64,000 bases of DNA from Candidatus Levyibacteriota bacterium (GTDB lineage: Bacteria > Patescibacteriota > Microgenomatia > Levybacterales > UBA12049), in contig JBPOIT010000009.1 of assembly GCA_052034235.1 (NCBI GenBank), forward strand, positions 8,203-72,202. The letters run 5' to 3'. Below, piece after piece: positions 1-58,921 of this stretch (position 1 is its first letter; each line of letters opens with the position of its first letter). The notes beneath the pieces were generated by a model that had not been told where the DNA came from, searched no databases, and saw only the letters and a list, made by a program, of their open reading frames with translations. The translations under genes were made by a program, and so were the position numbers.

Positions 1-3000
1 CCAATGATGTCTCAATCATTACTGATGCTGATTCTTTCCTTAATATCAGCGGCTTAACAACAGCAACTGGTAATGTGGTCTGTCTTGATGCCACCAACAA
101 TGTTGTCCGCTGTGCTGCAGGTTCAATTTCATTGCAAGCTGCATATAACAGCGGTAATACTATTACGACAACCAATGCTCGAGGTATCGACTTTACCCTT
201 GCTGATACTGCTACCGATTCTAAATTCTCAGTCACCACGGCAACAGGTTCGACTGCTGGTGTTGAATTCATCAGAGCTGATGGCATTGGCGCAGATGATC
301 CAACACAGCTTGTGCTTATTGATAATGCAGATGCTGACAGAATATTACCAATAGGCCTCAGACTATCCTCCTCCGGCGGTGGCGGTATCACAACTGCGAT
401 TGATGTTTCTGACGCAACGATTGGGACTGCACTTTCATTCGGAGCGAATGATTTGGTAGGAACCAATTTCACCGTTATTGGCGGTACTGGAAACATCACC
501 AGTGCTGGTGACCTTGCTCTTAATGGCGGAGATATCACCACAACACAAACAACAGCAAATGTCTTTAACGGAACGGCAACAACACTTAATGTTGGCGGCT
601 CTGCAACATCACTCACTATCGGTGCAACAACAGGAACTGCGGCCATCAGAAATGCCACCATCTCCCTACCAAATGCGACAGCAATTAATGCAGGCAGCGC
701 AGTCACCACAATTGACTCACTCGTTCTCGGCGGTGGCTATGGCACAAGTGGTCTGAGTATCAGTAACGCAGGCACGATTCAAGCTAACGGCAACTTAACT
801 ATCGACGGGACATCAACCCTTACCGGCAATATCACCAGTGCTGGAGATTTGGCGCTTAATGGCGGCGATATCACCACGACATCACTCAACGCTTCACTCT
901 TTAATGCAAACGCAACCACGATTAACATCGGCAGCGATGCAACAGCTATTACTCTCGGCGCTGCAACTGGCACAACAACTGTTAATAACGACTTAGCAGT
1001 TACCGGCACCGGCACATTTACCGACACTCTAACTGCGAATGGTGATTTTGCAGCAAATGCTGCTTCAACCTTTACACCGTCCGGTACCAATGACGTTGCT
1101 ATCATTACCGATGCTGATTCATTCCTTAACATCAGCGGATTAACAACTCCTGGCGTTGCCGGCTCTACCCTCTGTGTGGATGCATCCGACAATGTCACCA
1201 AATGTGGCGGCGCAACCTTCTCCCTCCAAGCAGCATATGCAGGCGGAAACACGATCACCACAAGTGATGCACGAGGCATCGACTTCACACTTGCTGATAC
1301 AACAACTGATTCTAAATTCAGTGTCACTACTGCGACAGGTTCAACGGGCGGTAGTGAATTCCTGAGAGCTGATGGAGCAGGTACAGATGATCCAGCACAA
1401 CTCGTTCTGATCCAAAACCTTGATGTTGATCGAGCATTACCTATTGGACTGAAGATTGCTGGCGTCACCGGCGGAAATGTCACAACCGCACTTGATCTTT
1501 CAGATGCCAACATCACAACAGCTATCGCACTCGGTGCAAATAATATCATCGGCACACAATTCAGTTTGATTGGATCAACCGGAAATATCATAACCTCAGG
1601 AGATATCGCAGTGAATGGCGGAGACATCACCACAACTTCCGGAACCGGCAATATCTTTACGAGTGGTGCGACGACACTTAACATCGGATCAGCAGCTACA
1701 ACCTACACCGTTGGAGCAACCAATGCGACAGGTAATATCCGTGGTACAACGGTTAACTTCCCTAACGCAACAACGGTTAATGGGACACTCGCAACTGCGA
1801 ACTTTGACACTGTTACTTCCGGACAAGGTTATGGCAATACTGGCGTCACCCTTTCAAGCGCAGGCAACATCTCAGCAAATGGTGCGCTTGTTATAGACGG
1901 CACCTCGACTCTTACCGGAAATGTCACTGCAGTAGCTGATGTCGCAGTCAATGGTGGCGATCTGACATCAAGTCAAACAACATTTAATCTGCTTAACACA
2001 GGTGTCACAACACTTAATATCGGCAGTGCCGCAACAGCAATTTCAATCGGCGCTGCAACTGGCGCAACAACTGTTAACAATGCTTTGAATGTAACAGGGC
2101 TCGCAACATTTAATGGTGGCGCAACGGTTCCAACTGGCGAAACCTTGACTGCAGATGGTGCATCGAACTTTACACCTGACGGCACCAATTCCGTAACTGT
2201 TAATACCGATGGAGATTCATTCCTCAAGCTAACAGGTTTGCAAACGATTACTGGTAATCTGCTCTGTTTGGACGCTTCCGATAATGTTTCAAAGTGTTCA
2301 ACCAGTTCAATCTCACTGCAAGGTGCATACACCGGCGGCAACTCCATCACCACAACAAGTAATCGTGATATCTCCTTCACCCTTGCTGACAGTGTCACAG
2401 ATTCTAACTTTGTCGTGACATCAGCAACAGGCTCAACAGGTGGATCACAATTTGTCAGAGCTGACGGTGCAGGCACATCTGACCCAACGCAACTCGTCCT
2501 GATCCAAAATCTCGACACTGATCGTGACTTACCAATTGGCATGAGAATTGCTGGCGTTACCGGTGGAAATGTCACGACCGCAATTGATTTGTCTGATGCA
2601 AATATTGTTAATGCACTTGATTTGGGAGCAAACAATATAACCGGCACATACTTCTCAGTTGATGGCGGAACTGGCAGCATCACAACAGCAGGAGATATTG
2701 CAGTGAATGGTGGAGATGTTACAACGACATCGACAACTGCAACACTGTTTAACACCGGCGCCACTACCCTATCAATCGGCGGTGTTGCTACGACATACAC
2801 ACTTGGAGCAACCAATGCGACAGGCAATATCCGTGGTACAACCATCAACTTCCCGAATGCAACAACAATCAATGGCACGCTTGCAACCGCGAACTTTGAC
2901 ACTCAGACTGTCGGCGGCGGTTACGGCTCAACAGGCGTCACCATCTCCAACACCGGCAATATCTCAGCAAACGGTAACTTAATTGTTGACGGCACCTCCA

Positions 3001-6000
3001 CACTCACCGGAAACACAACTGTCGGCGGCACACTCGGTGTCACAGGCGCAACAACACTTTCAAGCACACTTGCCGTAACCGGTGACACGACACTGACTGG
3101 AGATCTCGCAGTTAACGGCGGCGATCTAACCACAACTGCTGCTACCTTTAACTTAATCAACGGTAATGCAACAACTGTTAACTTCGCTGGTGCTGCGACA
3201 TCACTCATCATGGGCGCACCAACTGGGACAGCACAAATCAGAAATGACGTTGTCTCACTACCAAATGCAACTGCGTTTGATGCGCTCGCTGCCCTCGCCC
3301 GCGTTGACGGCCTCCAGGTTGGTGGCGGTTACGGAGCAACTGGTGCAACCATCACAAACACAGGAAATATCTCAGCAAACGGCGCATTGGTTATTGATGG
3401 GACATCAACACTCACCGGCAATGTCACCGCTGCTTCAGACGTTGCAATCAACGGCGGAGATCTGACAACAACCCAAACCACCTTTAACTTGCTTGACTCA
3501 GTAGCAACCACGGTTAACTTCGCCGGCGCTGCGACAACACTTGAAATTGGTTCAGGAACCGGAAGAACAACACTTGATAATAACTTGACAGCAAACCTTG
3601 TTGATAACAATGTCGACGCGCTTGATATTCAGGAAGGACTCAATAATTACATCAACATCAACACAAGTGACAATGCTGAAAACATCTCATTTGGTAACGG
3701 TACAACCAACCCAACATACAATTTCGTGGGAACCGGACTGACAACATTTGCAAGTGATATTGCAGTCAACGGCGGTGATATCACCACAACTTCCGGAACT
3801 GGTAATATCTTTACCAGTGGTGCGACAACACTTAACATTGGTTCAGCTGCTACCACCTATACACTCGGTGCAACCAACGCGACAGGAAATATTCGTGGTA
3901 CAACCATCAACTTCCCGAATGCAACAACGATCAATGGCACACTCTCAACTGCAAATTTTGACACTGTTACTTCCGGACAGGGTTATGGCAACACCGGTGT
4001 TACCCTTTCAAACACAGGCAACATCTCAGCAAATGGTGCATTGATTGTTGATGGCACATCAACACTTACCGGAAATGTCACAGCCGGCGCGGATGTCGCA
4101 GTCAACGGCGGAGACCTGACCACAACAGCTGGTACCTTTAACTTGCTTACTGCAAATGCAACAGCAATCAACTTCGGTAGTGCTGCAACTGCTCTTTCAA
4201 TCGGTGCAGGAACGGGTACAACAACAGTTAATAACGCACTCACCGCAACTGGTCTGATCACTGCAAATGGCGGTGCAACGGTTGCAACCGGTCAAACCTT
4301 TACAGCAAATGGCGCATCAACCTTCAACCCTGACAGCAACAACGATGTCACCATTAATACTGATGCTGACTCATTCTTAACCGTTACCGGTCTCCAAACA
4401 GCAACCGGCACACTGGTCTGTCTTGATGGTTCAGACAACATAGCTAAATGTTCAACCAGTTCAATTTCACTGCAATCTGCTTATACCGGCGGCAATACTA
4501 TCGCGACAACTGACAATCGTGATATCGCATTTACCCTGGCCGATACAGCTACTGACAGTAATTTCATTGTCACCACGGCAACAGATTCAACCGGCGGATC
4601 ACAATTCCTCAGAGCTGATGGTGCAGGAACATCCGATCCAACGCAACTCGTCCTGATCCAAAATCTCGATTCAGATAACGCGCTTCCAATCGGGCTTAAG
4701 ATTGCGGGTATCGCTGGAGGCAATATCACCACAGCACTTGATCTGTCTGACACCAACATCACAACTGCAATCGCGCTTGGAGCAAATAGTATCAGCGGCA
4801 CGAATTTCTCACTCAACGGAACAAACGGCAATGTCACAACAGGTGGTGATGTCGCAGTCAATGGTGGAGATCTGACAACTACTTCCGGCACCTTTAACTT
4901 GGTAAACAGTGGCGCAACAACGCTTAACATCGGCGGCGTTGCTACCACCTATACACTCGGTGCAACCAATGCGACAGGAAATATCCGTGGCACAACTGTC
5001 AACTTCCCGAATGCGACAACAATCAACGGTACACTCGCAACAGCGAACTTTGATACCATCACTTCCGGACAAGGTTATGGGACTGCGGGTGTTACCCTTT
5101 CAAATGCTGGTGATATCTCAGCAAACGGTGCACTCATTGTTGACGGAACATCAACACTGACAGGTGATGTCACTGCAGCAGCTGATGTTGCTGTGAACGG
5201 TGGAGACCTGACAACCAGTGCAACGACATTTAATCTTCTTAATACAACAGCAACGACCCTTAACATTGGCGGCGATGCAACAACTGTCAGTATCGGTGAT
5301 GCAACAGGAACAACAACAGTCAATAATGCACTCACCGCAACAGGTCTGATCACAGCAAACGCCGGCGCAACGGTTTCAACAGGTCAGACCTTTACAGCAA
5401 ATGGTCAATCAACCTTTACACCAAACTTAACCAATGACATCAACATCACAACCGATGCAGATTCCTTCCTGAACATTGCAGGACTGACAACTGCAACCGG
5501 CAATACCGTTTGTATCGATGCTACCAACAACATCGTTAAATGTTCAGCTGCTTCTATCACCTTGCAGTCAGCATATGACGGTGGTAACACGATCACCACA
5601 ACTGATGGACGAAGTATCGGCTTCACACTTGCTGACACCACAACAGATGCGAACTTCTCAGTCACAACAGCACCAGGCGGTGAAGGCTACAGCTACTTCG
5701 GACTTACTGACGGCACCAACACTACCTCCCCTGCCCAACTCGTGTTGGTTGAAAATCTTGATACTGATGAAGCTTTGGCAACTGGTATTAGAATTCAATC
5801 AGCAGCTGGTGGTATCACCACAGCACTTGATGTTTCAGATATTGAAATCGGTACTGCCCTCCTCTTTGGTGCTAATGATATTACCGGTACTAATTTCTCA
5901 GTAACAGGAACCAACGGCAACGTCGGAACAGCTGGTACCATAACTGCTGCTGGCAACATTAATGCTAATTCAGGAACACTTGCAACAACACAAACAACTG

Positions 6001-9000
6001 GTAACTTGTTTAATGCAACGGTGACAACACTTAACATTGGCGGTGCGGCTACCACCTACACACTTGGTGCAACCAACGCAACAGGAAATATCCGTGGCAC
6101 AACGATCAACTTCCCGAATGCAACTGCTATCAATGGAACGAGTGCAACTGCTAACTTTGATACCATCACTGCAGGACAGGGATATGGCACTGCTGGTGTT
6201 ACCCTTTCAAATGCTGGTGATATCTCTGCTAATGGTGCACTTATCATTGATGGCACCTCAACACTCACCGGCAATGTCACTGCTGCAACTGACGTTGCTA
6301 TCAACGGCGGAGATCTGACAACCAGTGCCACAACATTTAACTTGCTTAACGCTACGGCAACAACCATTAACTTCGGCAGTGCAGCAACAGCTCTTTCAAT
6401 TGGCGCTGGAACAGGGACGACAAATATCAATAATGATCTCCTTATTGATGGCACCACCACGTCAACAGGACTGGCAACATTCAATGGCGGCGCAACAGTT
6501 GCAACAGGTCAAACATTCTTAGCAAATGGTATCTCAACCTTTTCACCTGACAGTACCAACGATGTCACCATCAATACTGATGCAGATTCAAGACTTGTCT
6601 TAACCGGCCTCCAAACAGCAGCCGGCAATGCGCTTTGTATTGACGCAACAAACAATGTGACACTTTGTAACGGTGCACCATTTGGTTTGCAGGCTGCATA
6701 TAACACAGGCAATACCATCACCACAACTGATGCTCGAGGTATCGACTTTACCCTTGCTAACACATCAACTGATGCAAACTTCTCAGTCACAACAGCTCCT
6801 GGTTCAACAGGTTACAGCTACTTCGCTTTGGCTGATGGTGCAAATGCTACGACTCCATCACAGCTCGTGCTTGTTGAGAATTTGGATACCAATCAAGCAT
6901 TGCCAACAGGTATCAGAATTCAATCAGCAGCAGGCGGTATCACAACAGCACTTGATGTTTCTGATGCTGAAATCGGTACTGCAATCTCCTTTGGAGCAAA
7001 TGATCTGAGCGGCACCTACTTCTCAGTTGCAGGTGGAACTGGTGATGTCACTTCAGCCGGTGACGCAGCATTTAATGGCGGAGACATCACCACCACGTCA
7101 ACAAATGCAAGTCTCTTTGATACCAATGCCACAACGCTTTCAATTGGAGGCGCTGCTACCACACTTACTTTGGGCGGCAATGGCGGCACGGCAACCATCA
7201 ATAACACAACAGTGGCACTAGCAAATGCAACTGCGTTTGATGCACTCACTGCCCTCGCTCGAGTTGATGGACTGCAAGTTGGCGGCGGTTACGGATCAAC
7301 TGGTGTTACCATTACAAACACTGGTAATATCTCAGCAAATGGCAACTTGATTGTCGACGGTACATCAACACTGACCGGTAATGTTACTGCCGGTGCAGAT
7401 GTCGCAGTCAACGGCGGAGATATCACCACGACGTCAACAAATGCAAGTCTCTTTGATACCAATGCCACAACGCTTAATATTGGCGGCGCGGCAACGGCTA
7501 TCGCAGTTGGTGCAGGAACTGGCACAACAACCTTGAATAATAACCTGACAGTAAACTTAGTTGATAACAATGCGAATGCACTTGATATTCAGGAGAACGG
7601 AAACAATTACATCAACATCAATACAACTGACAATGCTGAGAATATTTCATTTGGTAACGGAGCAACCAATCCAACATACAACTTTGTCGGCGCAGGACTT
7701 GCAAGCTTTGCAAGTGATATTGCAGTCAACGGCGGAGACATCCTAACCAGTGCAGCAACTGCAACTGTCTTTAATACCAACGCAACCAACCTTTCAATCG
7801 GCGGTGCAGCAACGACCTTAACACTCGGTGCAACAACAGGAACTGCAACGATCAGAAATGCAACTGTTGCACTGCCAAATGCATTAGTCGGCATCGGCAC
7901 TGCCTCACCTATCTCAGCACTCCAGGTAACCAGACCTCTGTCACTCGGGGCAACAGGCAAAGCTCTTGCTATCTTTGATCAGAATGAAAACCAGGATATC
8001 CTGACAGCATCAGCAGCAGGTGTCACCCGCTTCACCGTTTCAAATGCAGGAAACATCACCAACAGCGGAACAATTACTGCCGGCGGTGATATCACAACTG
8101 CTGGCGATCTCGCAGTGAATGGCGGAGATATCACCACAACAGCCGGTACTTTTAATTTGGTCAACACCGGTGCTACAGCTCTTAATATAGGCGGCGATGC
8201 AACAGCTGTCAGTATCGGTGATACAACCGGTACAACAACAATCAATAACGCTACAGTGAATTTTGCAAATGCGACATCCTTCACTGCTCCAACTGCTGTT
8301 GCAACTTTGGATTCACTCCAAATTGGCGGCGGTTACGGAAGCAGCGGTACAACACTGACAAATACCGGCAACATATCAGCTAACGGCGCACTCATCATTG
8401 ACGGCACCTCAACACTGACCGGCAATGTCACAACTGCTGGCGATATCGCTGTCAACGGCGGAGATATCACGACAACACAAACGACCGCTGCGCTCTTTAA
8501 CACCAACGCAACAACGATTTCTATCGGCAGCGTTGCAACAACCATCTCAATCGGAGCTGGAACTGGCACAACAACCATTAACAATAATTTGGGAGTTACG
8601 GGAACAAGTACCTTTACAGGACTTGGCACCTTTAACGGCGGCGCAACTGTTGCAACTGGTCAAACATTCACAGCAGATGGTATTTCAACATTTACACCTG
8701 ACAATACCAACGATGTCACGATCAATACTGATGCTGATTCATTCCTCGTTCTCTCAGGATTAACAACACCAGTTGCAGCAGGAACAGCATTATGTATTGA
8801 TTCTTCAGATAATGTCACCAAATGTTCAGGCAACACCGTTACCTTGCAAACTGCATACACAGGCGGCAATACCATAACAACAACAGATGCTCGAGGTATC
8901 GACTTTACTCTTGCAAATACAACAACAGACAGTAACTTCTCAGTCACAACTGCTGATGATGCAACCGGTTTCTCAGCATTCACCAGAGTGAACGGCACCG

Positions 9001-12000
9001 GAACCAACAACCCAGCACAGTTGATCCTGGTTGACAATCTCGACACAGATCAAGCAATCGCAGCAGGTATCAAGATCCAATCAGCAGGAGGCGGCATCAC
9101 CAATGGTCTTGATGTGTCAGATGCTCAAATCGTTAATGCAATTGCACTTGGAGATAATAATATAACAGGCACATACTTCTCAGTTGACGGTGGAACCGGA
9201 AGTATCACCAGTGCTGGAGATATCGCAGTCAACGGCGGCGATGTAACAACCTCAGCAACAACTGGAAATCTCTTTAATGCAGGTGCAACGATCGTTAATG
9301 TTGGCGGTGCGGCGACAACCGTTGCAATCGGTGCCGCAACAGGAACGACAACCATCTATAACCAAACCCTTGCTCTGCCAAATGCAACAGCAATCAATGC
9401 AGGCAGTGCAGTCACCACAATTGACTCACTCGTCCTCGGCGGCGGCTACGGCACGAGTGGCCTGAGTATCAGTAATGCTGGCACCATTCAGGCAAATGGC
9501 AATCTCACAATCGACGGCACATCAACACTCACAGGAGATGTCTCAACGGCTGGAGATTTGGCTGTCAATGGCGGTGACATCACAACCACAGCTGGTATAG
9601 TTAATTTGGTAAATGCAAATGCAACAACCATCAACTTCGGCAGTGCAGCAACAGCTCTTTCAATAGGAGCAGCAACTGGCACAACGAACATCAACAACAA
9701 TTTGCTTGTTGATGGCACAACGACATCAACCGGACTTGCAACATTTAACGGTGGTGCAACTGTCTCAACTGGTCAGACATTCTTAGCAGATGGCATCTCA
9801 ACATTCTCACCTGACAGCACCAATGATGTCACCATCAATACTGACAGTGACTCCTTCCTCGTACTTACAGGTTTAACAACACCAGTCGCAGCTGGCACAC
9901 AACTTTGTGTTGACGCAACAAACAATGTCACCAAATGTTCAGGTAACACTGTCACCTTGCAATCTGCATACACCGGCGGCAATACCATCACCACAACAGA
10001 TGACAGAACAATTTCATTCACACTTGCTGACACTGCAATTGACAGTAACTTCAGTGTCCAAACAGCTGCCGGTTCAACAGGTTATAACTACTTCAGTTTG
10101 CAGAATGGCACCAACACCACCTCCCCTGCCCAGCTCGTGTTGGTTGAAAATCTGGATGTGAACGAAGCATTAGCAACAGGTATAAGAATCCAATCAGCAG
10201 CAGGAGGCATCACAACAGCACTTGATCTTTCAGATGCTGACATCGTGACTGCCCTATTACTTGGTCTTAATGATGTGACAGCAACAAATTATTCAATCGC
10301 AGGAGCAACCGGCAACATCACAACAGCTGGAAATGTCGCAGTCAACGGCGGCGCTATTACAACAACTGCCGGAACAGCAACAATCTTTAATACCGGCGCA
10401 ACTGACCTTTCAATCGGCGGCGACGCAACAACCCTTTCAATCGGTGATGCTACCGGAACAGCGACCATTAATAATGCAACCGTCGCTCTCTCAAATGCGA
10501 CAGCATTTGATGCGCTCACTGCTCTCGCCAGAGTTGATTCACTGCAAGTTGGCGGCGGATACGGCGCAGCAGGTGTCACCATCAGTAACGCCGGCACCAT
10601 TCAGGCAAATGGCAATCTCACAATTGACGGCACATCAACACTCACAGGAGATGTGACTGCAGCAGGAGATGTTGCAGTAAACGGCGGAGATATCACAACA
10701 AGTGCAACAACCTTTAATCTCGCCACTGCAACAGCAACAACACTTAATATCGGCAGCGCTGGAACAACGATCTCAATCGGAGCAAATACCGGTACAACAA
10801 CCATCAATAACGATGTTGTCGTTGATGGAACCGGCACATTCTCAGGACTGGGAACATTTAATGGCGGTGCAACTGTTGCCAACGGCCAATCATTCACAGC
10901 CGGCGGCCAATCAACATTCACACCAACCGGCACAACTGATGTCGTTATCAACACTGATGCAGACTCACTTTTGACCGTTACCGGTTTGCCAACACTCACC
11001 GGCACAGCTGTTTGTATCGATGGCTCAAACACCATTGCAAAATGTTCAGCAGACTCTATCACCTTACAGTCTGCATATAACGGCGGCAATACCATCACCA
11101 CAACCGATGCACGTGATATTTCATTCACGCTTGCTGATACCACTACTGATTCTAAATTCGCAGTCACCACAGCTACAGGTTCAACCGGCGGTGTCGAATT
11201 TACCAGAGCTGATGGTGCGGGTACAGCAGATCCTTCACAGTTAGTACTCATCCAAAATCTTGATACCAACCGAGCATTGCCAGTTGGTTTGAAGATTGCT
11301 GGCGTTTCAGGCGGTAATCTGACCACCGCACTTGATTTGTCAGATGCTAACATCACAACAGCAATTGCACTTGGTACCAATAATGTTGTCGGCACGAACT
11401 TCTCAATCACCGGTTCAAACGGCAATATCGGAACAGCAGGAACAGTAACAGCTGCTGGCAACATCAATGCAAATTCAGGAACACTCGCAACAACCGAAAC
11501 AACCGGTAACCTGTTTAATGCAACAGTGACGACACTTAACATTGGCGGCGCTGCGACAACTGTTGAAATCGGCGCAGCAACAGGAACCACCTCCATCAAC
11601 AACTTAACCGTTGCTCTTGATAATGCAACTGCTTTTGATGCGCTCTCAGCTCTCGCCCGAGTTGACGGCCTCCAAGTTGGCGGTGGTTATGGAGCAGCAG
11701 GCGTCACCGTTTCAAACACTGGTAATATCTCAGCAAATGGTGCCTTGATCGTCGATGGAACCTCAACACTTACTGGCGATGTCACTGCAGCTGGTGATCT
11801 CGCAGTTAATGGCGGAGACCTGACAACAAGTGCAACAACCTTTAACTTGCTTAACGCAACTGCGACAACTGTTAACTTTGCAGGAGCTGCCACTACCCTT
11901 TCAATCGGAGCCGCAACAGGTACTTCAAATATCAATAACAACTTGCTTGTTGATGGCACAACCACATCAACTGGTCTTGCAACATTTAACGGCGGTGCAA

Positions 12001-15000
12001 CTGTTGCAACCGGTCAAACATTTACAGCAAATGGTCAATCAACCTTTGCACCAGACAGTACCAATGACATCAACCTTACAACAGATACTGACTCATTCCT
12101 GAACATTGCAGGACTGACAACTGCGACAGGAAACGCAGTTTGTGTCGATGGTTCCAACAACATTGTCATTTGTTCAGCTGCTTCTATCACCTTGCAGTCA
12201 GCATATAATGGCGGCAACACCATCACCACAGCAGATAACAAGAGTATTTCCTTCACACTTGCTGATACTTCAACAGACAGTAACTTCTCTGTCACAACTG
12301 CTGATGGTTCAACCGGCTACTCATCATTCACCAGAGCTGATGGCACTGGCACATCTGATCCAGCACAACTTATCTTGATTGATAATCTTGACACCAACCG
12401 TGCAGTTGCAGCTGGTATTAAAGTCCAAGCAGCAGGTGGCGGTATCACCAACGGCATTGACCTTTCAGATGATGAAATTGTTAATGCACTCTCACTTGGT
12501 GCAAATGACATTACTGCAACCAATTTCTCAATCACCGGTTCCAATGGTAACTTCGGTACAACTGGCACCATCACAGCAACCGGCAATATCACCAGCAGTG
12601 CAGATGTCGCAGTCAACGGTGGAGACCTGACAACAAGTGCAGGAACATTTAACTTAGTAAACAGTGGTGCAACAATTCTTAACATCGGCGGAGATGCAAC
12701 AACTGTTGCAATCGGTGCAGCAACAGGTACAACAACCATCAATAACCTGACACTCGCCCTGCCAAACGCAACTGCTATTACAGCAGCAAGTGCACTCTTA
12801 ACAATTGATTCTCTATCAGTCGGCAACGGTTATGGTTCAACTGGTGTGACTATCTCCAACACTGGTAACGTCCAAGCAAATGGCAACTTAACAATTGATG
12901 GCACATCAACACTCACCGGTGATGTCACAACTGCCGGCAACGTTGCAGTCAACGGCGGCACAATCTCAACAACACAAACAACAGCAAATCTCTTCAACGC
13001 AAATGCGACAACTGTGAATATCGGCGGCGCTGCTACCACCAATTTTGCAGGCGGTTACGGTGCAACAGGAGTCACCCTCTCCTCCGCTGGTGACATCTCA
13101 GCAAATGGTTCCTTAATAATTGATGGCACATCAACACTGACCGGCAATGTCACAACAGCTGGAGATCTTGCTGTTAACGGCGGCGATATCACCTCAACTG
13201 CCGGAACACTCAACATCAACGCAGGCGGCATTGTCGCAATCGATGATGCATTGACCGTAACCGGTACGATTTCAGACAGCAATTCAAACCTGATTCTTGA
13301 TGACACGGTTGATATTGGCGGTGCAAACGGCATCCGCATTGATACAACCGGCGACATCTCAGACATTGATGGTGAGGTTACCATTTCAGATAACACCACA
13401 ATAAACGGCACACTCACCGTAACCGGTGCAATCTCTGACAGTAATTCAAATCTTTCACTTAACGACAACACCGATGTGACTGGTGACTTCACTGTTTCAG
13501 GCCGAACAACGCTCGGATCAGCAACCCAAGGTGACGGCACATTAAATGTCACCGGTGCACAAGCTGGTAAAGCACTCGTCATTCTTAACGAAACCGGTGA
13601 TCAGAACATCCTGACTGCTTCTGCTTCAGGAACAACTGTGTTGAATGTTATGAGAAACGGCAATCTGCAAATTGAAGGTTCACTTTCAGATCTTTCAGAT
13701 GCAACCCTTAACATAAATGACAGCCTGGATGTTGCCGGCAACTTCACCTTAACAGGCACCATCTCAGACACCAATTCAAACCTGATCCTTGATGACACTG
13801 TTGATATTGGCGGAGCAAACGGCATTCGCATTGATACAACCGGCCAGATCTCTGACATTGATGGCATTGTCGCAATTGTCGATAACACCACAATTGACGG
13901 CACACTTACCGTCACCGGTGCAATCTCTGACAGTAATTCAAATCTCTCACTCAACGACAACACCGATGTCACCGGAACATTTACTGCATCAGGACAAACA
14001 ACCATCGGCACGGCAGTTCAGGGTGACGGCCTGTTCAATGTCACCGGCGCACAAACCGGCAAAGCGCTCGCTATCTTTAATGAAACCGGCGATCAGAATA
14101 TCCTTACCGCTTCAGCAAGTGGCACAACTGTCTTTAATCTCGGCAGAACTGGGAACGTTGCAATTGAAGGTTCACTTTCAGATCTTTCAGATGCTGCGTT
14201 GACAATCAATGATTCCCTATCAGTCACAGGAGATGCAACAGTTACCGGCATAACAACACTGAACGGAGCACTGATTGCAAACAGTACCGCTAACTTCCAA
14301 GATGTCACAGGTATCACTGTCGGTGTAGACGCAGCAACCAACACCAAAGGAGTTATCAAACTTATCGGTGAAGGTTCCAACAACTACTCAACAACCTTCC
14401 AAACTGGTATCCAAACACAAGACGTGACATACACACTTCCACTTGATGACGGTAGTACTAACTATGTTCTTTCAACTGATGGTAATGGCGTTCTCTCATG
14501 GCAATCAGCATCAGGCGTTGGTGCAGGAACAATCAATGCAGTCGGCAACGTCGTTACAGGAAGTGCTTTTACCGGCAGTGATTCAAGTGCAAATAAAGGT
14601 AATGAGCTGTACTTCGAAGGTTCAACCAGTACTGATGATGGAAATGAAATTCTGTTAACCGCTGTTAATCCATCAGCTGACAGAACGTACACGATGCCTG
14701 ATCTCGGCACCAATGGAACCTTTGCCTTCCTCGAAGGAACACAAACATTCACTGGACTTAAGACTTTTGCTCCAGCCGCTGACAATGTCGGTTTAACTGT
14801 CACCTCCTCCACGACAGATGATGGTGAAGGTTTCAGACTGAACTTCACCCAATCAGATGACACTAACGCCAATGACACAGGCAGTGCCTTGAGTATCGCT
14901 TTGACTTCAAGTTCAGGTGACGCAGATTCACTCTATGGCGTTAACCTTGAAGACATCTCTGCAGGTGCAGCAAATGAAGTCGGTTTGAGAATCGGTGCTG

Positions 15001-18000
15001 GATATGACTATGGCATTGAGTTTGAAGGTTCAAGTGCAAACAATAATGAACTCTTCCTTACAGCCGCAAATGCAACTGCAGACAGAACAATTACCCTGCC
15101 AGATCTTACCGGTACGGTTGCCCTGCTTGAAAATGCACAATCATTCACCGGTTTGAAATCATTCACCAATGCGTCAGGAATTATTGTCGGTGAAGATTTG
15201 GCAACCAACACCAAAGGTGTCATTACACTTATCGGCGAAGGTGCAAACAATTTCTCAACAACATTCCAGACAACAACACAATCACAAAACATCACCTATA
15301 CCCTCCCTGCTGATGATGGCGTTAATAACTATGTGCTTTCAACCGATGGCAGCGGTAATCTTTCATGGCAATCAGCATCAGGCGTTGGTGCAGGAACCAT
15401 AACCGCTGTTGGCAATGTCCTGACCGGAACATCATTCACCGGTAGTGATTCCAGTGTTCAAAAAGGTAACGAGTTATACTTCGAAGGATCAACCAGTACT
15501 GATGATGCATATGAAATTCTGCTAACGGCTGTTAATCCATCAGCCGACAGAATTTACACGATGCCAGATCTCGGCACCGACGGCACATTTGCCTTCCTCG
15601 AAGGAACACAAACATTCAGTGGTGCAAAGACCTTCAATGATCTCACCATTGCCGACACCAATGTCGTCCTTTCTGGTGGTGATTCAACCTTGGATATAAC
15701 AGGAGCCGCGACACGAACATTGAGTCTTCTTAATTCAACAGGCGGACAAGTTGCAAATCTTGATCTCACTGATGGTGGTCTCTTCACCGGCAGTACAAGC
15801 AGACTTACCAATGCAGGCGGACTTGAAAATATCACCGGCTATTCACAAACATCAGGTAACTTCCAGCAAACAGGTGCCGGCACATTCTCAACAGGTACAG
15901 GCAACGTTTCACTCAACGGCGACACATCAGTCACCAGTGATAATACCTTCACCGTTGGAACCGGCCTGACCTCACTCGGCGGACAATTGGGAGTATCAAG
16001 TTATGCAACCTTTAGTGCGACAGTTGATATCGCAGATGATACAACTATTGGCGGAACACTTGATGTTGCCGGTGCAACCACACTTAACTCAACACTCGAT
16101 GTCGATGGGACAGCAACCTTTAATGGAGATATCCTTCAAACCGGAAGTGGCGCATTGACAACCGGAACAGGAGCCGTGACACTTAACGGAGACACAACCC
16201 TTGTTTCAGGAAAGACACTCACAACAACCGGCAGTCTCGCTGCAAACGGTCAATCAACCTTTACACCAACCGGCACCAATGATGTTTCATTTGTCACGGA
16301 TACAGATTCATTCATCAATATCACCGGCCTGACAACTGCGACAGGAACAGCTGTTTGTATCGATGCAACCAACAATATCGTCAAATGTTCGGCTGCCTCC
16401 TCTACCCTGCAAGGTGCATACGTCGGCGGCAATACCATAACAACTAGTGATGCCAGAGATATTACCTTTACTCTTGCAAACACAGCAACAGATAGTAACT
16501 TCACCGTTACCACTGCTGCTGGTGGAGCTGGTTATAGCTACTTTGGTTTGGCAGACGGCACCAACACTGCACCTCCAGCACAACTCGTCCTTGTTGAGAA
16601 TTTGGATACTGATGAAGCTTTGCCAGCAGGTATTAAGATTCAATCAGCATCAGGCGGCATCACCAATGGTCTTGATGTCTCAGATGCTCAAATCGTTAAT
16701 GCAATCGCACTTGGAGAAAATAACATAACCGGTACCTACTTCTCAGTTGATGGCGGAACAGGCAATGTCACAGCTGCTGGATCAGCAAGTATTGGCGGCG
16801 GTTACGGATCAACTGGCGTCACCATCAGTAGTGCTGGAAACATTCAGGCAAACGGCACACTTACCATAGACGGCACATCAACACTGACCGGAGATGTGAC
16901 TGCGAGTGGTGACCTCGCTGTGAACGGTGGAGACATCACAACATCATCAGGCACAGCAGCAATCTTTAATACCGGTGCAACATCACTCAGTATCGGCGGA
17001 GCTGCCACTACCCTTTCACTCGGTGCAGGAACTGGCACAACAACAGTGAATAATGCACTCACTGCAACTGGTTTGATCACAGCTAATGCAGGAGCAACCA
17101 TTCCAACCGGCCAATCCCTTACCGCAAATGGTGCATCAACGTTCTCACCTAACTTAACCAACGATGTCACCATTAACACCGATACTGATTCATTCTTAAC
17201 CATCACCGGGCTGACAACTCCTGGCCTTGCTGGTAACGCACTTTGTGTCGATGCAACCAACAATGTCACCAAATGTGCAGCTTCAACCTTTACCCTGCAA
17301 GGTGCATATGACGGCGGCAACAGCTTGACTACAACTGATGCTCGAAACATCAGCTTCACGCTTGCTGATACCTCAACTGACAGTAACTTTGCTATCACAA
17401 CCGCTGACGGTTCAACCGGTTACACCTCCTTCACCAGAGCAAATGGCGCTGGTACGGCAGATCCTGCCCAGCTGATCTTGGTTGATAATCTCGACACCGA
17501 CAGAAGTATCACAGCTGGTATTAAGATTCAATCAGCTGCCGGAACCATCACCAATGGCATTGACCTTTCAGATATTGAAATCGTGAACGCATTGTCTCTC
17601 GGTGCAAATGACATCATTGCAAGTAACTTTACCCTTAATGGCAACAACGGAGATATCACAACTGCTGGAGATATCGCAGTCAACGGCGGCACAATCACAA
17701 CAACACAAGCAACAGCTGAGATCTTTAACACCAATGCAACTAACCTTTCTATCGGCGGAGCTGCCACTACCCTTTCACTTGGCGCTGCAACCGGAACCGC
17801 AACAATCAACAATGCAACTGTTAACTTTGCAAATGCGACATCCTTTACGGCAGCGGGTGCAGCAGCAACCTTTGATTCAGTCGCAGTCGGCGGGGGTTAT
17901 GGTTCAACCGGCGCAACCATTTCAAATACTGGCAATATCTCAGCAAATGGCGTACTCATTGTTGACGGAACATCAACACTCACCGGTGATGTCACTACTG

Positions 18001-21000
18001 CAGGAGATATCGCAGTGAACGGCGGAGACATTACAACATCAGCTGGAACTGCTGCTCTCTTTAATACTGGAGCCTCAACAGTTAATATTGGCGGCGACGC
18101 AACAACAGTCAGCATCGGCGATGCAACCGGAACAACAACCGTGAATAATGCACTCACTGCAACTGGTTTGATTACAGCTAACGCAGGTGCAACAGTTGCA
18201 ACTGGTCAAACATTTACAGCAAATGGACAATCAACCTTTACACCAAACTTAACCAATGACATAAGTATCACAACCGATACTGATTCATTCCTGAACGTTG
18301 CCGGTTTGACAACTGCGACAGGAAATGCTCTTTGTATCGATGCAACAGACAACATCGTTAAATGTTCAGCTGCTTCTATCACATTGCAGTCTGCTTACAC
18401 TGGCGGCAACACCATCACCACAACAGATGCAAGGGGTATCGACTTTACGCTTGCAAATACTGCAACTGACAGTAACTTCTCTATTACCACTGCCGATGAT
18501 TCAACCGGTTTCTCAGCATTTACCAGAGTAAACGGCACCGGCACCAACAACCCAGCACAGTTGATCTTGGTTGATAATCTCGACACAGATCAAGCAATTG
18601 CAGCTGGTATCAAGATTCAATCAGCAGCTGGCGGCATCACCAACGGCATTGACCTTTCAGATATCGACATCGTGAACGCATTGTCACTCGGTGCAAATGA
18701 TGTGATAGCATCCAACTTCTCTATCACCGGATCAAATGGCAATATCGGAACTGGCGGCACAATTACTGCCACTGGTGATATCAATGCAAATTCCGGAACG
18801 CTTGCAACAACCCAAACAACTGCAAATCTGTTCAACGCTACCGCAACCACGCTTAACATTGGCGGCGCGGCAACGACTTTGACACTTGGCGCGGCAACTG
18901 GAACAGCAACCATCAACAATGCGACCATCAACTTCCCGAATGCAACATCCTTCACTGCTCCAAATGCAGCTGCAACCTTTGATTCAGTTGCTATCGGTGG
19001 CGGTTATGGTACAGCTGGCGCAACCATTTCAAATGCCGGTACGATTCAGGCAAACGGCAATTTAACTATCGACGGCACATCAACACTCACTGGTGACGTG
19101 ACAACTGGCGGAACGATCAATGCAAATGGCGGTACAATTGCTACCACCCAAACAACAGCTAACTTGCTTAACGCAACTGCTACAACTGTCAACTTTGCAG
19201 GAGCTGCTACTACCCTTTCAATCGGCGCAGCAACAGGTACCTCAAACATCAATAACAACTTGCTTGTTGACGGCACAACGACATCAACTGGACTGGCGAC
19301 CTTTAACGGCGGTGCAACTGTTGCAACTGGTCAAACCTTTAGTGCCGGCGGTCAATCAACCTTCACACCAGACAGTACCAATGACATCAATATCACAACC
19401 GATGCAGATTCCTTCCTGAACATTGCAGGACTGACAACTGCAACCGGCAATACCGTTTGTATCGATGCCACAAACAACATTGTTAAATGTTCAGCTGCTT
19501 CTATCACCTTGCAGTCAGCTTATAACGGCGGCAATACCATCACCACAACCGATAACAAGAGTATTTCATTCACGCTTGCTAACACTGCAACTGACAGTAA
19601 CTTCAGTGTCCAAACTGCTGCCGGCGGAGCTGGTTACAGTTACTTCGGTTTGGTTGACGGCACTAATACCGCTCCTCCAGCACAGCTCGTCCTGATTGAA
19701 AATCTTGATACTGATGAAGCGTTGGATACTGGCCTTCGAATCCAAGCTGCAGCAGGCGGTATTAACACAGCAATTGATCTGTCTGATGCTGATATTGATA
19801 CGGCACTTTTGCTCGGTGCCAATGATGTTACCGGCTCTAACTTCTCTATCACAGGATCAAACGGTAATATCGGTACTGGCGGCACAATTACTGCAACTGG
19901 CGACATCACCAGCGGTGGAAACCTCGCAGCGAACACTGGTTCACTCACCACAACTGCGACATCTGCAAATCTGTTTAATACCAACGCAACAACACTTGCA
20001 ATCGGCGGCGCGGCAACAACACTCACACTCGGAGCAACAACCGGTACTGCAACCATCAGTAACGCAACCATCAACTTCCCGAATGCAACATCATTTACGG
20101 CTCCTAATGCAGCTGCAACCTTTGATTCAGTTGCTATCGGCGGCGGTTATGGTGCAGCTGGTGCAACCATTTCAAATAGTGGTACTATCCAGGCAAACGG
20201 TAACTTAACCATCGACGGAACGTCAACACTCACTGGTAATGTCACAACTGCCGGCGATGTTGCAGTTAACGGCGGCGATGTCACAACAACCCAAACAATA
20301 GCAGCACTCTTTAACACCAACGCAACAACACTTAATATCGGCGGAGTTGCAACAACAATCTCAATCGGTGCAGGTTCAGGAACAACAACGGTGAATAATG
20401 CACTAACTGCAACAGGTCTGATCACAGCAAACGCCGGCGCAACGGTTGCTAACGGCCAGACATTCACAGCTGGTGGTCAATCAACATTTACACCAACCGG
20501 CACTAACGATGTCAGTATCACAACCGATGCAGACTCATTCTTAAACGTTGCTGGTTTGACAACAGCTGCCGGTGATAACATTTGTATCGATGCCACAAAC
20601 AACATCGTTAAATGTGCAACAGCTTCAGTCACCTTGCAAGAAGCATATGATGGCGGCAATACTATCACCACAACTGATGCACGAAGTATCGACTTTACCC
20701 TTGCCAACACAGCGACAGACAGTAACTTCAGTGTCCAAACCGCTGCTGGTTCAACAGGTTATAACTACTTCAGTTTGGCAAACGGTACCAACACTACCTC
20801 CCCTGCACAGCTCGTGTTGATTGAAAATCTTGATACTGATGAAGCGTTGGATACCGGCATCAGAATCCAAGCAGCTGCCGGTGGTATTAACACTGCTATT
20901 GATTTGTCTGATGCTGATATTGATACAGCATTGTTACTCGGTGCCAATGATGTTACCGGAGCTAGCTTCTCTATCACCGGGGCAAACGGCAACATCGGAA

Positions 21001-40247: not shown

Positions 40248-41228
40248 TTAATCACGTTTAACAACCTCGTCATACACCTTCTTGGAGATTTGTTCTATAA
40301 CTTCTTCTTGATCTGCAATATTTTTCCCTTTAGTCATAATGCATAGAGCATATGGACTTTCAGGATAATAGACAATACCACAATCGTGTAATTGTTGTTC
40401 ATCGCCACGTTTTATCTCTCCGAATTTGTGCGCAACAGGTATGCCTGATGGAATACCTGCTACTAATCCTTCTTTAAATTCTGTTTGTGATAAAAATTCC
40501 AATGCTTTATTAGACATTTCAAAATTTAGATATGATGAATTATAAAGAATTCGAAAAATTGCAGCATATGAATGTACGGCAATATACTGTTCTATATCAC
40601 CTTTTCTTGGATCTATGATACCTAGATCACTTAATGTATCAATGAAATCTTCTTGCGAATACTCTTGATTCAAATATTTTAAAAGCAGCTCCTGTGCAGT
40701 ATTTTCTGATTGTGTGATAAGAATTTTTAGTACTTCTTCAATCGTATATGTTTTACCTTTCTCAATCTTTACCTTCGGTTTGATATTTTGATCTACGATC
40801 TTAATATCACTTACCACAGTGAGCGTTTTTTTCAATAATGAAGGGTCTGCCTCTGCCTTTTTTAAATAAGTCATCAGCAGGGGTACTTTGAGTAAACTGG
40901 CTGGTGCAAAATCTTCGTTTGCATTAATACTCATCAGTGGACCATTTTGAAGATCTCTAAAATGTATCGCAACAGTGGACACTTTCCCTGCTGCGCTTTC
41001 AGTCTCAATAACTTCCAACAGATCATTTCGTAAAGTTACGTATTCCTTCTTTTTAACAGGATCCGTTTCGCAACGCAGAGGATTTAGATACGCATAGGGA
41101 CATTCTGCTTCTGTTGAGATTTGTGTCAAATTTTTACTTTTTTTTGCAGAAGTATTATATAAAGAAAACCCTAGTGCAAGGATGATAGTTAATAAAATTA
41201 GATAAATAATTATATTAGTTTTATTCAT
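40248..41228 (-). CDS. Secreted/membrane-anchored serine hydrolase with class A beta-lactamase fold (SxxK, SEN)
   Basis: 326 aa. N-terminal TM/signal (IIIYLILLTIILALGF), PASLLK (SxxK), ITQSENTAQ (S[DE]N-like loop), and KFGE near the C-terminus. About 40% identical to the adjacent paralog. Confidence 0.6.
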   Translation of the reverse strand: MNKTNIIIYLILLTIILALGFSLYNTSAKKSKNLTQISTEAECPYAYLNPLRCETDPVKKKEYVTLRNDLLEVIETESAAGKVSTVAIHFRDLQNGPLMSINANEDFAPASLLKVPLLMTYLKKAEADPSLLKKTLTVVSDIKIVDQNIKPKVKIEKGKTYTIEEVLKILITQSENTAQELLLKYLNQEYSQEDFIDTLSDLGIIDPRKGDIEQYIAVHSYAAIFRILYNSSYLNFEMSNKALEFLSQTEFKEGLVAGIPSGIPVAHKFGEIKRGDEQQLHDCGIVYYPESPYALCIMTKGKNIADQEEVIEQISKKVYDEVVKRD

Positions 41229-52994: not shown

Positions 52995-53207
52995 TGATAC
53001 TTACTGAGGGAGTCTCACTGCTCGTTTTAATAATTCATTAAAGTCTTTTTCGGTCGTCGCCTTCTCCCCTTTTTTAAAAAGCTTTCTTACTTTTTTATCT
53101 CGAATGACAATTCGCTCTGATTTCGATTTCATAGTGTGAGTATACATTATATATGTATTGTGAAGAAAGAGTGGTGTATGGAATAAATCTTCTAGAACAT
53201 GCTATTA

Positions 53208-57709: not shown

Positions 57710-57710
57710 A

Positions 57711-58283: not shown

Positions 58284-58324
58284 AAGGCAGTGAATTACTG
58301 AGATTATAACACACAAACTTGAGG

Positions 58325-58918: not shown

Positions 58919-58921
58919 AGG

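What the first reader, a model, noticed from the sequence alone, without database searches (positions are those of the whole stretch)
6070..6520. Near-identical DNA tracts between distant repeat units (6070-6520 vs 22570-23030, plus other pairs)
The tract 6230-6420 is ~98% identical to 22740-22930, and the ~450-bp flanks are ≥93% identical. The tract 5435-5575 is ~96% identical to 19378-19518 (5 mismatches in 141 nt). Other unit pairs are only ~70-85% identical at the DNA level. Patchy near-identity of this kind points to recent gene conversion or unequal recombination, that is, concerted evolution. Such tracts can also drive expansion and contraction of the protein. They are exactly the kind of sequence where short-read assemblers collapse or mis-join repeats.
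Basis: seen in the sequence. Interest (0 to 1): 0.55.

Follow-up and report, generated by a model that had tools for sequence, protein, structure and literature searches.

The report
Short gene-conversion patches in giant repeat gene
Two short stretches (about 190 and 145 bases) inside a more than 40-kb repeat-protein gene of a tiny uncultured bacterium are almost identical to distant copies, because one repeat recently overwrote part of another; this is real but ordinary repeat-gene evolution.

Summary
The finding lies in one giant ORF (window 3-39941, + strand, at least 13,312 aa, cut by the window's 5' edge). The genome is Levybacteria-like (Patescibacteria/CPR). The ORF holds about 25 super-units of about 365 aa, with median DNA identity of 64% and near-saturated silent sites (pS 0.63).

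Only a 188-nt core is truly recent: 6201-6388 = 22716-22903, 2 mismatches, dS 0.02. They have dS 0.5-0.7 and dN about 0.01, so their identity reflects older shared ancestry plus strong protein constraint. The second tract (5433-5576 = 19380-19523, 96.5%, dS 0.16, dN 0) is also real.

Both tracts are extreme outliers among all unit pairs and in permutation tests, including at third codon positions. They are in frame, cause no length change, and both involve unit 5511-6635.

Best explanation: short-patch ectopic gene conversion between old, diverged intragenic repeats. The result is a mosaic, not array-wide concerted evolution. Unequal crossing-over is not supported. The mis-assembly worry is overstated, because the longest exact repeat is 126 nt. 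A related giant gene from another metagenome shows the same pattern. This is a new member of a known kind, of low to moderate interest.

The parts
3..39941 (+). Giant repeat-protein ORF, at least 13,312 aa. Its 5' end runs off the window; the stop codon is at 39939-39941.
   Evidence: One search lists ORF 75..39941. One search shows the frame is open back to base 3. The protein is rich in T, G, A and N. It has no Pfam or NCBIfam family. Homologues are named 'beta strand repeat-containing protein' and come from Patescibacteria. Purifying selection between paralogous units (dN 0.009 vs dS 0.52) shows it is truly coding.
81..34577 (+). Array of about 25 super-units of 352-376 aa. Each is anchored by a Cys-loop motif (C..ATNN.VKC....LQ.AY.GGNTITTT) and contains internal sub-repeats of about 112 aa (336 nt). 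A non-unit insert interrupts the array at 13.2-16.3 kb.
5511..6635 (+). Unit u5511, the unit involved in both recent tracts. It is a mosaic whose best partner switches along its length: u19458, then u27129, u23151, u22026, u8793.
6201..6388 (+). Tract 1 core, copy A. Recent conversion patch of 188 nt with 2 mismatches to copy B, including a 126-nt exact run at 6201-6326.
   Evidence: (dS 0.02).
22716..22903 (+). Tract 1 core, copy B, in unit u22026 (22026-23150). It lies 16,515 nt (5,505 codons) downstream of copy A and in frame with it.
6051..6200 (+). Left shoulder of tract 1 (partner 22566-22715). Protein is nearly identical but silent sites have diverged (dS 0.52, dN 0.009), so it is older than the core.
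6389..6548 (+). Right shoulder of tract 1 (partner 22904-23063). dS 0.64 and dN 0.067, so it is older than the core.
5433..5576 (+). Tract 2, copy A. It spans the tail of unit u4419 and the Cys-loop head of u5511. 96.5% identical to copy B, with 5 synonymous and 0 non-synonymous differences (dS 0.155). This copy is the likely recipient.
19380..19523 (+). Tract 2, copy B, spanning the tail of u18333 and the head of u19458. It lies 13,947 nt downstream of copy A and in frame. It is the likely donor lineage, because it stays collinear with the u12141 line through the tract.

Best explanation
The tracts are footprints of short-patch, non-reciprocal homologous exchange (ectopic, intragenic gene conversion). 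The exchange took place between paralogous super-units of one giant gene that probably encodes a fibrous surface protein, in a Levybacteria-like Patescibacteria genome.

Proposed mechanism (inferred, not shown): a break or gap in one unit is repaired from a diverged unit 14-16.5 kb away in the same ORF. Only about 150-190 nt is copied, in frame and with no change in unit number.

The most recent event, 6201-6388 with 22716-22903, has dS of about 0.02. An older one, 5433-5576 with 19380-19523, has dS of about 0.16. Many still older patches, at 85-93% identity, make the whole array a patchwork.

Because patches are short and rare compared with point mutation, the repeats stay diverged (median 64% DNA identity). 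The net effect is shuffling of segment variants among units, not homogenisation.

Shown: the pair-specific collapse of silent divergence, sharp tract edges, in-frame register, unchanged unit length, discordant genealogies, and the same pattern in a homologous gene. Inferred: the RecA/RuvABC-type pathway, the direction of transfer (u5511 as recipient of tract 2), and any functional consequence.
For: Silent-site evidence:
- Core dS is 0.02, shoulders 0.52-0.72, and background pS is 0.63. Fisher test of core against shoulders gives p=1.3e-7.
- In 6051-6440 there are 26 synonymous against 3 non-synonymous codon differences. The shoulders are therefore conserved by protein constraint, while the core is young.

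Statistical evidence:
- The permutation test gives runs of 103 polymorphic sites and 44 third-position sites. None of 300 permutations reached them.
- Both tracts are unique outliers among 253-300 unit pairs compared over the same homologous segment.

Structural evidence:
- All 122 diagonal segments of at least 88% identity are in frame.
- Both partner units are 375 aa, like several others, so nothing was inserted or deleted.
- Tract 2 is discordant with its flanks. The u5511 line follows the u22026 line at 93% and 84% before the tract, drops to 74% inside it, and matches u19458 at 96.5% there. u19458 stays collinear with the u12141 line at 84-92% before, through and just after the tract.

Array-wide mosaicism:
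- The best partner changes every 150-500 nt.
- Between-block distance correlation is 0.29, against 0.70 for random column partitions.

Independent support:
- An independent homologous giant gene (L081, a 15.3-kb open frame with 12 units) shows the same pattern. Its units have a median identity of 59%, it contains 100-nt windows at 91-92%, and its block correlation is 0.17 against 0.49.
- ruvA, ruvB and ruvC are encoded in the window, so Holliday-junction processing is available.
Against: - No reads, population data or orthologue from a close relative are available. The event is therefore inferred from a single consensus sequence.
- The exact core is absent from the genome and metagenome collections.
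- The direction of tract 1 cannot be determined, because the flanks of the two units are already each other's closest relatives.
- Second-tier patches at about 80% four-fold-site identity have per-window P of only 1e-5 to 5e-4. Some may be chance given the number of windows scanned.
- recA was not seen in this window.
Confidence: 0.75

Rival explanations
1. The tract is a remnant of a recent segmental duplication or unequal crossover. A multi-unit block (4826-7552 and 21341-24085) was duplicated, and the 188-nt core is what remains unchanged.
For: The two regions are collinear over about 2.7 kb (2.5 units) on one diagonal at 76% identity, the second-highest-scoring long diagonal in the ORF. 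u5511/u22026 is the most similar unit pair overall, at 82%.
Against: Silent divergence on that diagonal is 0.5-0.8 everywhere except the 188-nt core, where it is 0.02. A single duplication cannot give two ages with a sharp boundary (Fisher p=1.3e-7). An old block duplication probably does explain the backbone similarity, but the core still needs a later patch event. No tract longer than 400 nt reaches 90% identity.
Confidence: 0.08
2. Assembly or polishing artefact. Multi-mapping reads homogenised one copy toward the other during consensus building or polishing, or the contig is mis-joined at the shared 126-mer.
For: The window comes from an uncultured-organism assembly of unknown method. In one MAG the homologous gene is found only as contig-sized fragments of 1.8-4.1 kb (P0055, P0057, P0059, P0063, P0077, P0003). 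The source contig could not be found in public collections for cross-checking.
Against: - The ORF is uninterrupted for 39.9 kb.
- Identity declines in steps (99%, then about 90%, then about 80%) on both sides along the same diagonal. It does not break abruptly as it would at a chimeric join.
- Differences in the shoulders are 26 synonymous to 3 non-synonymous, which is a biological signature and not error.
- The longest exact repeat is 126 nt, so any 150-nt read carries a discriminating base (this step is inference).
- An independent assembly of a related gene (L081) shows the same kind of short high-identity patches.
Confidence: 0.07
3. Selection on the nucleotide sequence itself keeps the two copies identical, for example an embedded RNA structure, regulatory site or small element.
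For: The RNA fold of the core is slightly more stable than shuffles (z = -1.82; 9 of 200 shuffles fold as well).
Against: - The z-score is marginal.
- There is no Rfam hit anywhere in the window and no promoter-like site in 5300-6700.
- The other 20-plus homologous segments are only 60-83% identical to these two, so any such constraint would have to apply to just two of about 25 copies.
Confidence: 0.03

Closest known systems
Intragenic recombination among direct repeats of Helicobacter pylori cagY (PMC2194252)
   Same: A large surface-exposed protein gene is packed with direct repeats, and recombination between the repeats always gives in-frame products. All donors and recipients lie inside one expressed ORF.
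   Different: cagY events are mainly deletions and duplications that change repeat number, and they were observed experimentally. Here the two detected events are length-neutral patches, inferred from a single sequence, and the repeats are far more diverged.
Short intragenic recombination in the Giant1-5 surface-protein genes of Apilactobacillus kunkeei (PMC12863079)
   Same: Very large extracellular proteins occupy several percent of a small genome. dS varies patchily along the genes, and this is attributed to short recombination tracts plus strong purifying selection on the protein.
   Different: Those tracts are allelic exchanges between strains, detected in a population sample. Here the exchange is between paralogous repeats within one gene of one genome. 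The protein families are unrelated.
Periscope proteins: variable-length stalks of highly identical tandem repeats (PMC8201768)
   Same: A long repetitive bacterial surface protein in which DNA identity between repeats is proposed to allow intragenic recombination.
   Different: Periscope repeats are highly identical in sequence throughout, and repeat number varies between strains. Here the median repeat identity is 64% and only about 0.3 kb of roughly 34 kb is near-identical. Length variation could not be tested.
Intragenic homogenisation (concerted evolution) of spider-silk spidroin repeats (PMC3933166, PMC3563967)
   Same: A giant repetitive structural gene in which repeats exchange sequence.
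   Different: Spidroin repeats are homogenised across the whole array. This array is not homogenised; it is a mosaic of old variants.
Cassette-based segmental gene conversion in antigenic variation (Neisseria pilE/pilS, Borrelia vlsE; review PMC4534519)
   Same: Short, in-frame, non-reciprocal patches are copied from diverged homologous donors and create mosaic variants of a surface protein.
   Different: Those systems use silent donor cassettes outside a single expression site, have dedicated features, and run at high programmed rates. Here donors and recipients are all expressed parts of one ORF, and the rate appears low: one event at dS 0.02 and one at dS 0.16.

Membership tests
Ectopic (non-allelic) gene-conversion tract between paralogous repeats | Pair-specific excess of identity at silent sites relative to the flanks and to all other paralogue pairs | tested here: met
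   dS is 0.02 in the core against 0.5-0.7 in the flanks. Permutation runs gave P<1/300, including at third positions. The tracts are outliers among 253-300 pairs.
Ectopic (non-allelic) gene-conversion tract between paralogous repeats | Genealogy inside the tract is discordant with the genealogy of the flanks | tested here: met
   Met for tract 2. Inconclusive for tract 1, where the flanks are already sister sequences. Array-wide discordance is shown by a block correlation of 0.29 against 0.70.
Ectopic (non-allelic) gene-conversion tract between paralogous repeats | Length-neutral and in register (replacement, not insertion or deletion) | tested here: met
   Offsets 16515 and 13947 are multiples of 3. 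The alignments are ungapped. The units are 375 aa, like others.
Ectopic (non-allelic) gene-conversion tract between paralogous repeats | Converted and unconverted alleles observed in a population or in sister lineages | not testable with these tools
   No reads are available. No same-species sequence was found in the genome, metagenome or protein collections.
Concerted evolution (array-wide homogenisation) | Repeats within the gene are highly similar to each other along their whole length | tested here: not met
   Median unit identity is 64% with a maximum of 82%. Median pS is 0.63.
Concerted evolution (array-wide homogenisation) | Paralogous repeats are more similar within a genome than orthologous repeats are between species | not testable with these tools
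   The closest homologous gene, L081, is only about 59% identical in protein. Orthology of individual units cannot be assigned.
Unequal crossing-over product | A contiguous block of one or more units of uniform young age, and/or a change in copy number | tested here: not met
   No tract longer than 400 nt reaches 90% identity. The age steps from dS 0.02 to 0.5 within 200 nt.
Periscope protein | Long tandem repeats that are highly identical in sequence | tested here: not met
   only 10 exact repeats of at least 40 nt in 40 kb.
Periscope protein | Repeat-number variation between strains | not testable with these tools
   No other strain is available.
Trimeric autotransporter adhesin (the name JGI gives to some homologues) | YadA-type head, stalk or anchor domains recognisable by Pfam | tested here: not met
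   No Pfam family reached its threshold in about 7,300 aa sampled from the ORF, including the C-terminus. NCBIfam gave nothing. No transmembrane-like segment was found. The N-terminus lies outside the window.
'Large' prokaryotic gene as defined by West-Roberts et al. 2023 (over 30 kb, over 10,000 aa) | ORF of more than 10,000 aa | tested here: met
   At least 13,312 aa. The definition is from 10.1101/2023.11.21.568195, section 5.

The most novel reading that the evidence does not exclude
The giant gene serves as its own cassette library. Segmental, in-frame conversion among its roughly 25 diverged units would be a selected way of continually reshuffling the surface of an attachment fibre in an episymbiotic CPR bacterium. 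This would be an intragenic analogue of pilE/pilS- or vlsE-type variation, with unit 5511-6635 as a hotspot recipient.
Probability: 0.1. Interest if true: 0.65.

Novelty: new member of a known kind. Interest (0 to 1): 0.3.

Why it matters
The finding shows how a gene of more than 40 kb, several percent of a roughly 1-1.6 Mb CPR genome, evolves. Its repeats are ancient and kept distinct, under strong purifying selection on the protein, and short ectopic conversion patches occasionally shuffle segment variants between units.

The longest exact repeat is 126 nt, and the positions that long reads would need to span are identified.

The silent-site age ladder (dS 0.02, 0.16, about 0.5) gives a rough measure of conversion rate relative to mutation in an uncultured lineage.

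The phenomenon itself is well known from other repetitive surface-protein genes, so by itself it opens no new question.

Tried and rejected
1. Looking for the source contig or same-species relatives, to date the events or see variants.
- The exact 61-nt core is absent from genome contigs and metagenome contigs.
- The neighbouring beta-lactamase-like protein is not on record.
- The best protein homologues are only 43-60% identical.
- The closest genomes by RuvB (OZ246394.1 and CAZDOJ010000001.1, 87%) were fetched only 10 kb either side of ruvB.

2. megablast self-search with an 85% identity filter missed the tracts, because the gapped extension diluted them into long 70-76% alignments. I replaced it with an ungapped diagonal scan.

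3. Tandem Repeats Finder sees almost nothing, because the units are too diverged.

4. Structure of a unit.
- The first AlphaFold2 run (18 paralogues) gave pLDDT 59.5 and was unusable.
- The second (31 sequences) gave pLDDT 76, but an extended monomer with almost no secondary structure.
- Foldseek found nothing in the PDB. In BFVD it found only weak matches to phage tail-fibre or tip-attachment proteins (E 5e-3, TM 0.22).

5. Pfam and NCBIfam on the giant ORF gave no family.

6. An embedded RNA or regulatory element in the tract was rejected.

7. The four-fold-site scan for further young tracts shows that only the top tract is robust after allowing for multiple testing. The background four-fold match is 0.48.
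Full report
**Context**

The finding lies inside a single very large ORF on the + strand. The ORF listing reports 75..39941 (13,288 aa). The frame is open back to window base 3 with no upstream stop. The gene is therefore cut by the window edge and encodes at least 13,312 aa.

The protein is dominated by T, G, A, N, L and S. It has no Pfam or NCBIfam family at threshold. It has no transmembrane-like segment in the part seen.

The rest of the window (40-64 kb) is ordinary bacterial chromosome:
- two beta-lactamase-family paralogues
- a PKD/CBM96 protein
- a Wzy_C/TPR protein
- a P-type ATPase
- ruvB, ruvA and ruvC
- ribosomal protein L25
- a class-I aminoacyl-tRNA synthetase
- a Trans_reg_C regulator

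RuvB is 82-87% identical to MAGs labelled Patescibacteria or Levybacteria, several of which are mislabelled 'uncultured Gammaproteobacteria', and 70-83% identical to many Candidatus Levybacteria. The organism is therefore a Levybacteria-like member of the Candidate Phyla Radiation.

GC content is 46.9% in the giant ORF and 39.4% elsewhere. I attribute the difference to the ACN/GGN/GCN-rich codon content; this is inference.

**Architecture of the gene**

A Cys-loop motif (TDADSFL..GL.T..G...C.DATNN.VKC....LQ.AY.GGNTITTTD.R) recurs 25 times at spacings of mostly 352-376 aa. phmmer with one unit finds 36 full or partial copies between nt 81 and 34577.

Each super-unit contains sub-repeats of about 112 aa (336 nt). 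A 100-nt sub-motif occurs 56 times.

Nt 13.2-16.3 kb holds unrelated sequence with its own duplications, and 34.6-39.9 kb is non-repetitive.

In a codon alignment of the 25 units, pairwise DNA identity is 55-82% with a median of 64%. Nei-Gojobori proportions are median pS 0.63 and pN 0.26. The repeats are therefore old, and silent sites are close to saturation.

**Checking the observation**

At the literal coordinates identity is only 22-25%.

In the correct register:
- Tract 1 uses offset 16515.
  - 6230-6420 is 95.8% identical.
  - The real core, 6201-6388 = 22716-22903, is 98.9% identical (2 mismatches) and contains a 126-nt exact run.
  - 6070-6520 is 92.2% overall.
- Tract 2 uses offset 13947. 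5435-5575 is 96.5% identical, with 5 mismatches.

An exhaustive ungapped diagonal scan of the ORF ranks the 6051-6439 / 22566-22954 pair first and the 5388-5606 / 19335-19553 pair third. All 122 segments of at least 88% identity over 100 nt are in frame.

Only 10 exact repeats of at least 40 nt exist in 40 kb. The two longest, 126 and 77 nt, are these two tracts. The 61-nt core occurs exactly twice in the window and never in 100 shuffles.

The relevant null is not random sequence but homologous repeats under uneven constraint. I tested that in three ways.
1. Over the same homologous segment across all unit pairs, tract 1 is 98.9% against a next best of 83.0% and a median of 66.5%. Tract 2 is 96.5% against 88.2% and 59.7%. 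Tract 2's third-position identity is 89.6% against a maximum of 72.9% elsewhere.
2. In a GENECONV-like test that permutes polymorphic columns, u5511/u22026 share a run of 103 consecutive polymorphic sites (largest permuted value across all pairs, 43). They also share 44 third-position sites (largest permuted value, 25). The u4419/u18333 tail, which is the left part of tract 2, has a run of 53 sites (P<1/300) and 21 third-position sites (P=0.023).
3. Silent and replacement changes were compared directly, as described next.

**What is young and what is not**

In 6051-6440 the two copies differ at 29 codons, of which 26 are synonymous and 3 non-synonymous.

| Segment | dS | dN |
|---|---|---|
| Core 6201-6386 | 0.02 | 0.007 |
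| Left shoulder 6051-6200 | 0.52 | 0.009 |
| Right shoulder 6387-6548 | 0.64 | 0.067 |
| Further left 5928-6050 | 0.72 | 0.023 |
| Start of the unit | 0.84 | 0.20 |

(All.) The step between core and shoulders is significant (Fisher p=1.3e-7).

They are a stretch where the two units share an older ancestor and the protein is under strong constraint. Only about 188 nt is recent.

Tract 2 (5433-5576) has dS 0.155 and dN 0, between flanks of dS 0.7 and about 2. It is an older, separate event.

**Mosaic structure**

Along unit u5511 the best-matching unit switches as follows:
- u19458 (90%)
- u27129 (about 80%)
- u23151 (87-90%)
- u22026 (94-100%)
- u8793 (87%)

Across the whole array the best partner changes every 150-500 nt.

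Pairwise-distance matrices from four contiguous blocks of the 18 full units correlate at only 0.29 on average (range 0.06-0.54). Random partitions of the same columns give 0.70, with a minimum of 0.64. Different parts of the unit therefore have different genealogies.

For tract 2 the discordance is explicit:
- The u5511 line follows the u22026 line at 93% and 84% upstream of the tract.
- It falls to 74% inside the tract, where it matches u19458 at 96.5%.
- u19458 remains collinear with the u12141 line, at 92%, 84%, 84% and 84%, through and just beyond the tract.

This makes u5511 the probable recipient; that step is inference. The direction of tract 1 cannot be resolved.

**Mechanism**

The best-supported reading is short-patch ectopic gene conversion between diverged intragenic repeats 14-16.5 kb apart. 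The copying is in frame and leaves length unchanged: both units are 375 aa, like five others.

An older multi-unit block duplication probably explains why 4826-7552 and 21341-24085 are collinear at 76%. The young core must have been superimposed later.

Unequal crossing-over between these positions would create or delete 16.5 kb and leave a long block of uniform age. Nothing longer than 400 nt reaches 90% identity.

'Concerted evolution' is the wrong label for the array as a whole. The repeats are not homogenised, and exchange yields mosaics.

The window encodes RuvA, RuvB and RuvC, so junction-processing machinery is present. recA was not in the window, and the pathway is inferred.

**Artefact and other rivals**

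Mis-assembly or polishing homogenisation cannot be excluded without reads, but several results argue against it:
- The ORF is intact for 39.9 kb.
- Identity declines stepwise on both sides of the core along one diagonal, rather than breaking at a junction.
- Flank differences are overwhelmingly synonymous.
- The longest exact repeat is shorter than a 150-nt read.

An embedded RNA or regulatory element is unlikely. The fold z-score is -1.82, there is no Rfam hit, there are no promoter-like sites, and the other 20-plus copies do not share the nucleotides.

**Related sequences**

No same-species sequence was found. Protein homologues of the units reach 58-60% identity and are named 'beta strand repeat-containing protein', 'trimeric autotransporter adhesin' or 'Hemagluttinin family protein [Candidatus Amesbacteria]'. 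In one MAG the homologue exists only as contig-sized fragments of 1.8-4.1 kb. C-terminal homologues are 43-49% identical, and the named ones are largely from Patescibacteria. Only 16 near-full super-units occur in 10 database proteins, so the complete unit belongs to a narrow clade.

A metagenome scan recovered L081 (JADMIO011437896.1). Its 15.3-kb locus is one open frame with 12 Cys-loop units. Its units have a median identity of 59% and a maximum of 69%, yet it contains 100-nt windows at 91-92%. Its block correlation is 0.17 against 0.49. The same pattern of old repeats with short patches thus appears in an independent assembly. Several more distant loci also carry in-frame tracts of 100-180 nt at or above about 90% identity.

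**Nature of the protein**

AlphaFold2 with 31 sequences gives pLDDT 76, but an extended chain with almost no intrachain secondary structure. There is no significant PDB match. BFVD gives only weak resemblance to phage tail-fibre or tip-attachment proteins (E 5e-3, TM 0.22).

A fibrous, possibly multimeric, surface protein is a reasonable guess from composition, homologue names and these weak hits. It is not demonstrated.

**Comparison with what is known**

Exchange between intragenic repeats of large surface proteins is well documented:
- H. pylori cagY (PMC2194252)
- Periscope proteins (PMC8201768)
- spidroins (PMC3933166)
- short recombination tracts with patchy dS in the A. kunkeei giant proteins (PMC12863079)
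- cassette conversion in antigenic variation (PMC4534519)

This case differs from Periscope proteins and spidroins in that its repeats are highly diverged and not homogenised. It differs from cassette systems in having no silent donors. It differs from A. kunkeei in being paralogous rather than allelic exchange.

The gene qualifies as 'large' (over 10,000 aa) in the sense of West-Roberts et al. The section of that preprint that I read lists PVC phyla, Actinobacteriota, Myxococcota and Margulisbacteria as rich in such genes, and does not list Patescibacteria. The gene's size in a CPR genome is therefore the more unusual feature, but it is outside this finding.

**Verdict**

Gene conversion is supported. 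Unequal recombination and array-wide concerted evolution are not. The assembly risk is overstated.
- Novelty: new member of a known kind.
- Interest: 0.3.

Noticed in passing
window 3-39941 (+): The ORF is at least 13,312 aa and still open at the window's 5' edge, in a Levybacteria-like CPR genome. Close relatives have chromosomes or contigs of 1.1-1.6 Mb, so this one gene is roughly 2.5-4% of the genome. The section of the giant-gene survey that I read (10.1101/2023.11.21.568195) does not list Patescibacteria among phyla rich in proteins over 10,000 aa.
   Followed up: partly
window 13203-15650 (+): A non-unit insert within the array has its own internal duplications. One is at a 492-nt offset (13203-14150, up to 86% identity) and one at an 867-nt offset (14253-15650, up to 87%). 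They share a repeated 'SDSNSNL.L.D..D' type motif unlike the main units.
   Followed up: no
window 34578-39938 (+): The C-terminal ~1,790 aa are non-repetitive and match no Pfam or NCBIfam family. By eye they contain an FN3-like stretch, a coiled-coil-like stretch, and two diverged copies (861-nt offset, 57-58% DNA identity) of a 'PIAL.GRVPVKV...PGVAMKAT' module.
   Followed up: no
window 1-39941 vs 39942-64000: GC content is 46.9% in the giant ORF and 39.4% in the flanking chromosome. This probably reflects Thr/Gly/Ala-rich codon content rather than foreign origin. Not tested.
   Followed up: no
window 40248-41228 (-) and 41246-42253 (-): Two tandem paralogues of the Beta-lactamase2 family (PF13354, E about 1e-35 each) lie immediately downstream of the giant gene.
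   Followed up: no
window 56675-59407 (-): ruvC (58922-59407), ruvA (57711-58415) and ruvB (56675-57709) are clustered, with a PEMT/ICMT-like methyltransferase ORF (58325-58918) between ruvC and ruvA. This is relevant only in showing that Holliday-junction processing genes are present.
   Followed up: partly
window 52521-54245 (+): A 157-aa ORF with only an IS1595-type transposase zinc ribbon lies next to a 271-aa Mg_chelatase/ComM-like ORF that matches the family profile only from position 50 onward. This may be a disrupted comM-like gene.
   Followed up: no
L081 (JADMIO011437896.1) 1-15334: The whole 15.3-kb locus of a 32.5-kb metagenome contig is one open frame with 12 Cys-loop units at 354-370 aa spacing. 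It is a second giant gene of this family, only about 59% identical in protein to the window's units.
   Followed up: partly
proteins P0055, P0057, P0059, P0063, P0077, P0003: Several 'MAG: Acidobacteriota bacterium' partial proteins are homologues of this Patescibacteria-type giant protein. They sit on contigs of 1.8-4.1 kb that they fill almost end to end. This looks like a fragmented and probably mis-binned giant gene.
   Followed up: no
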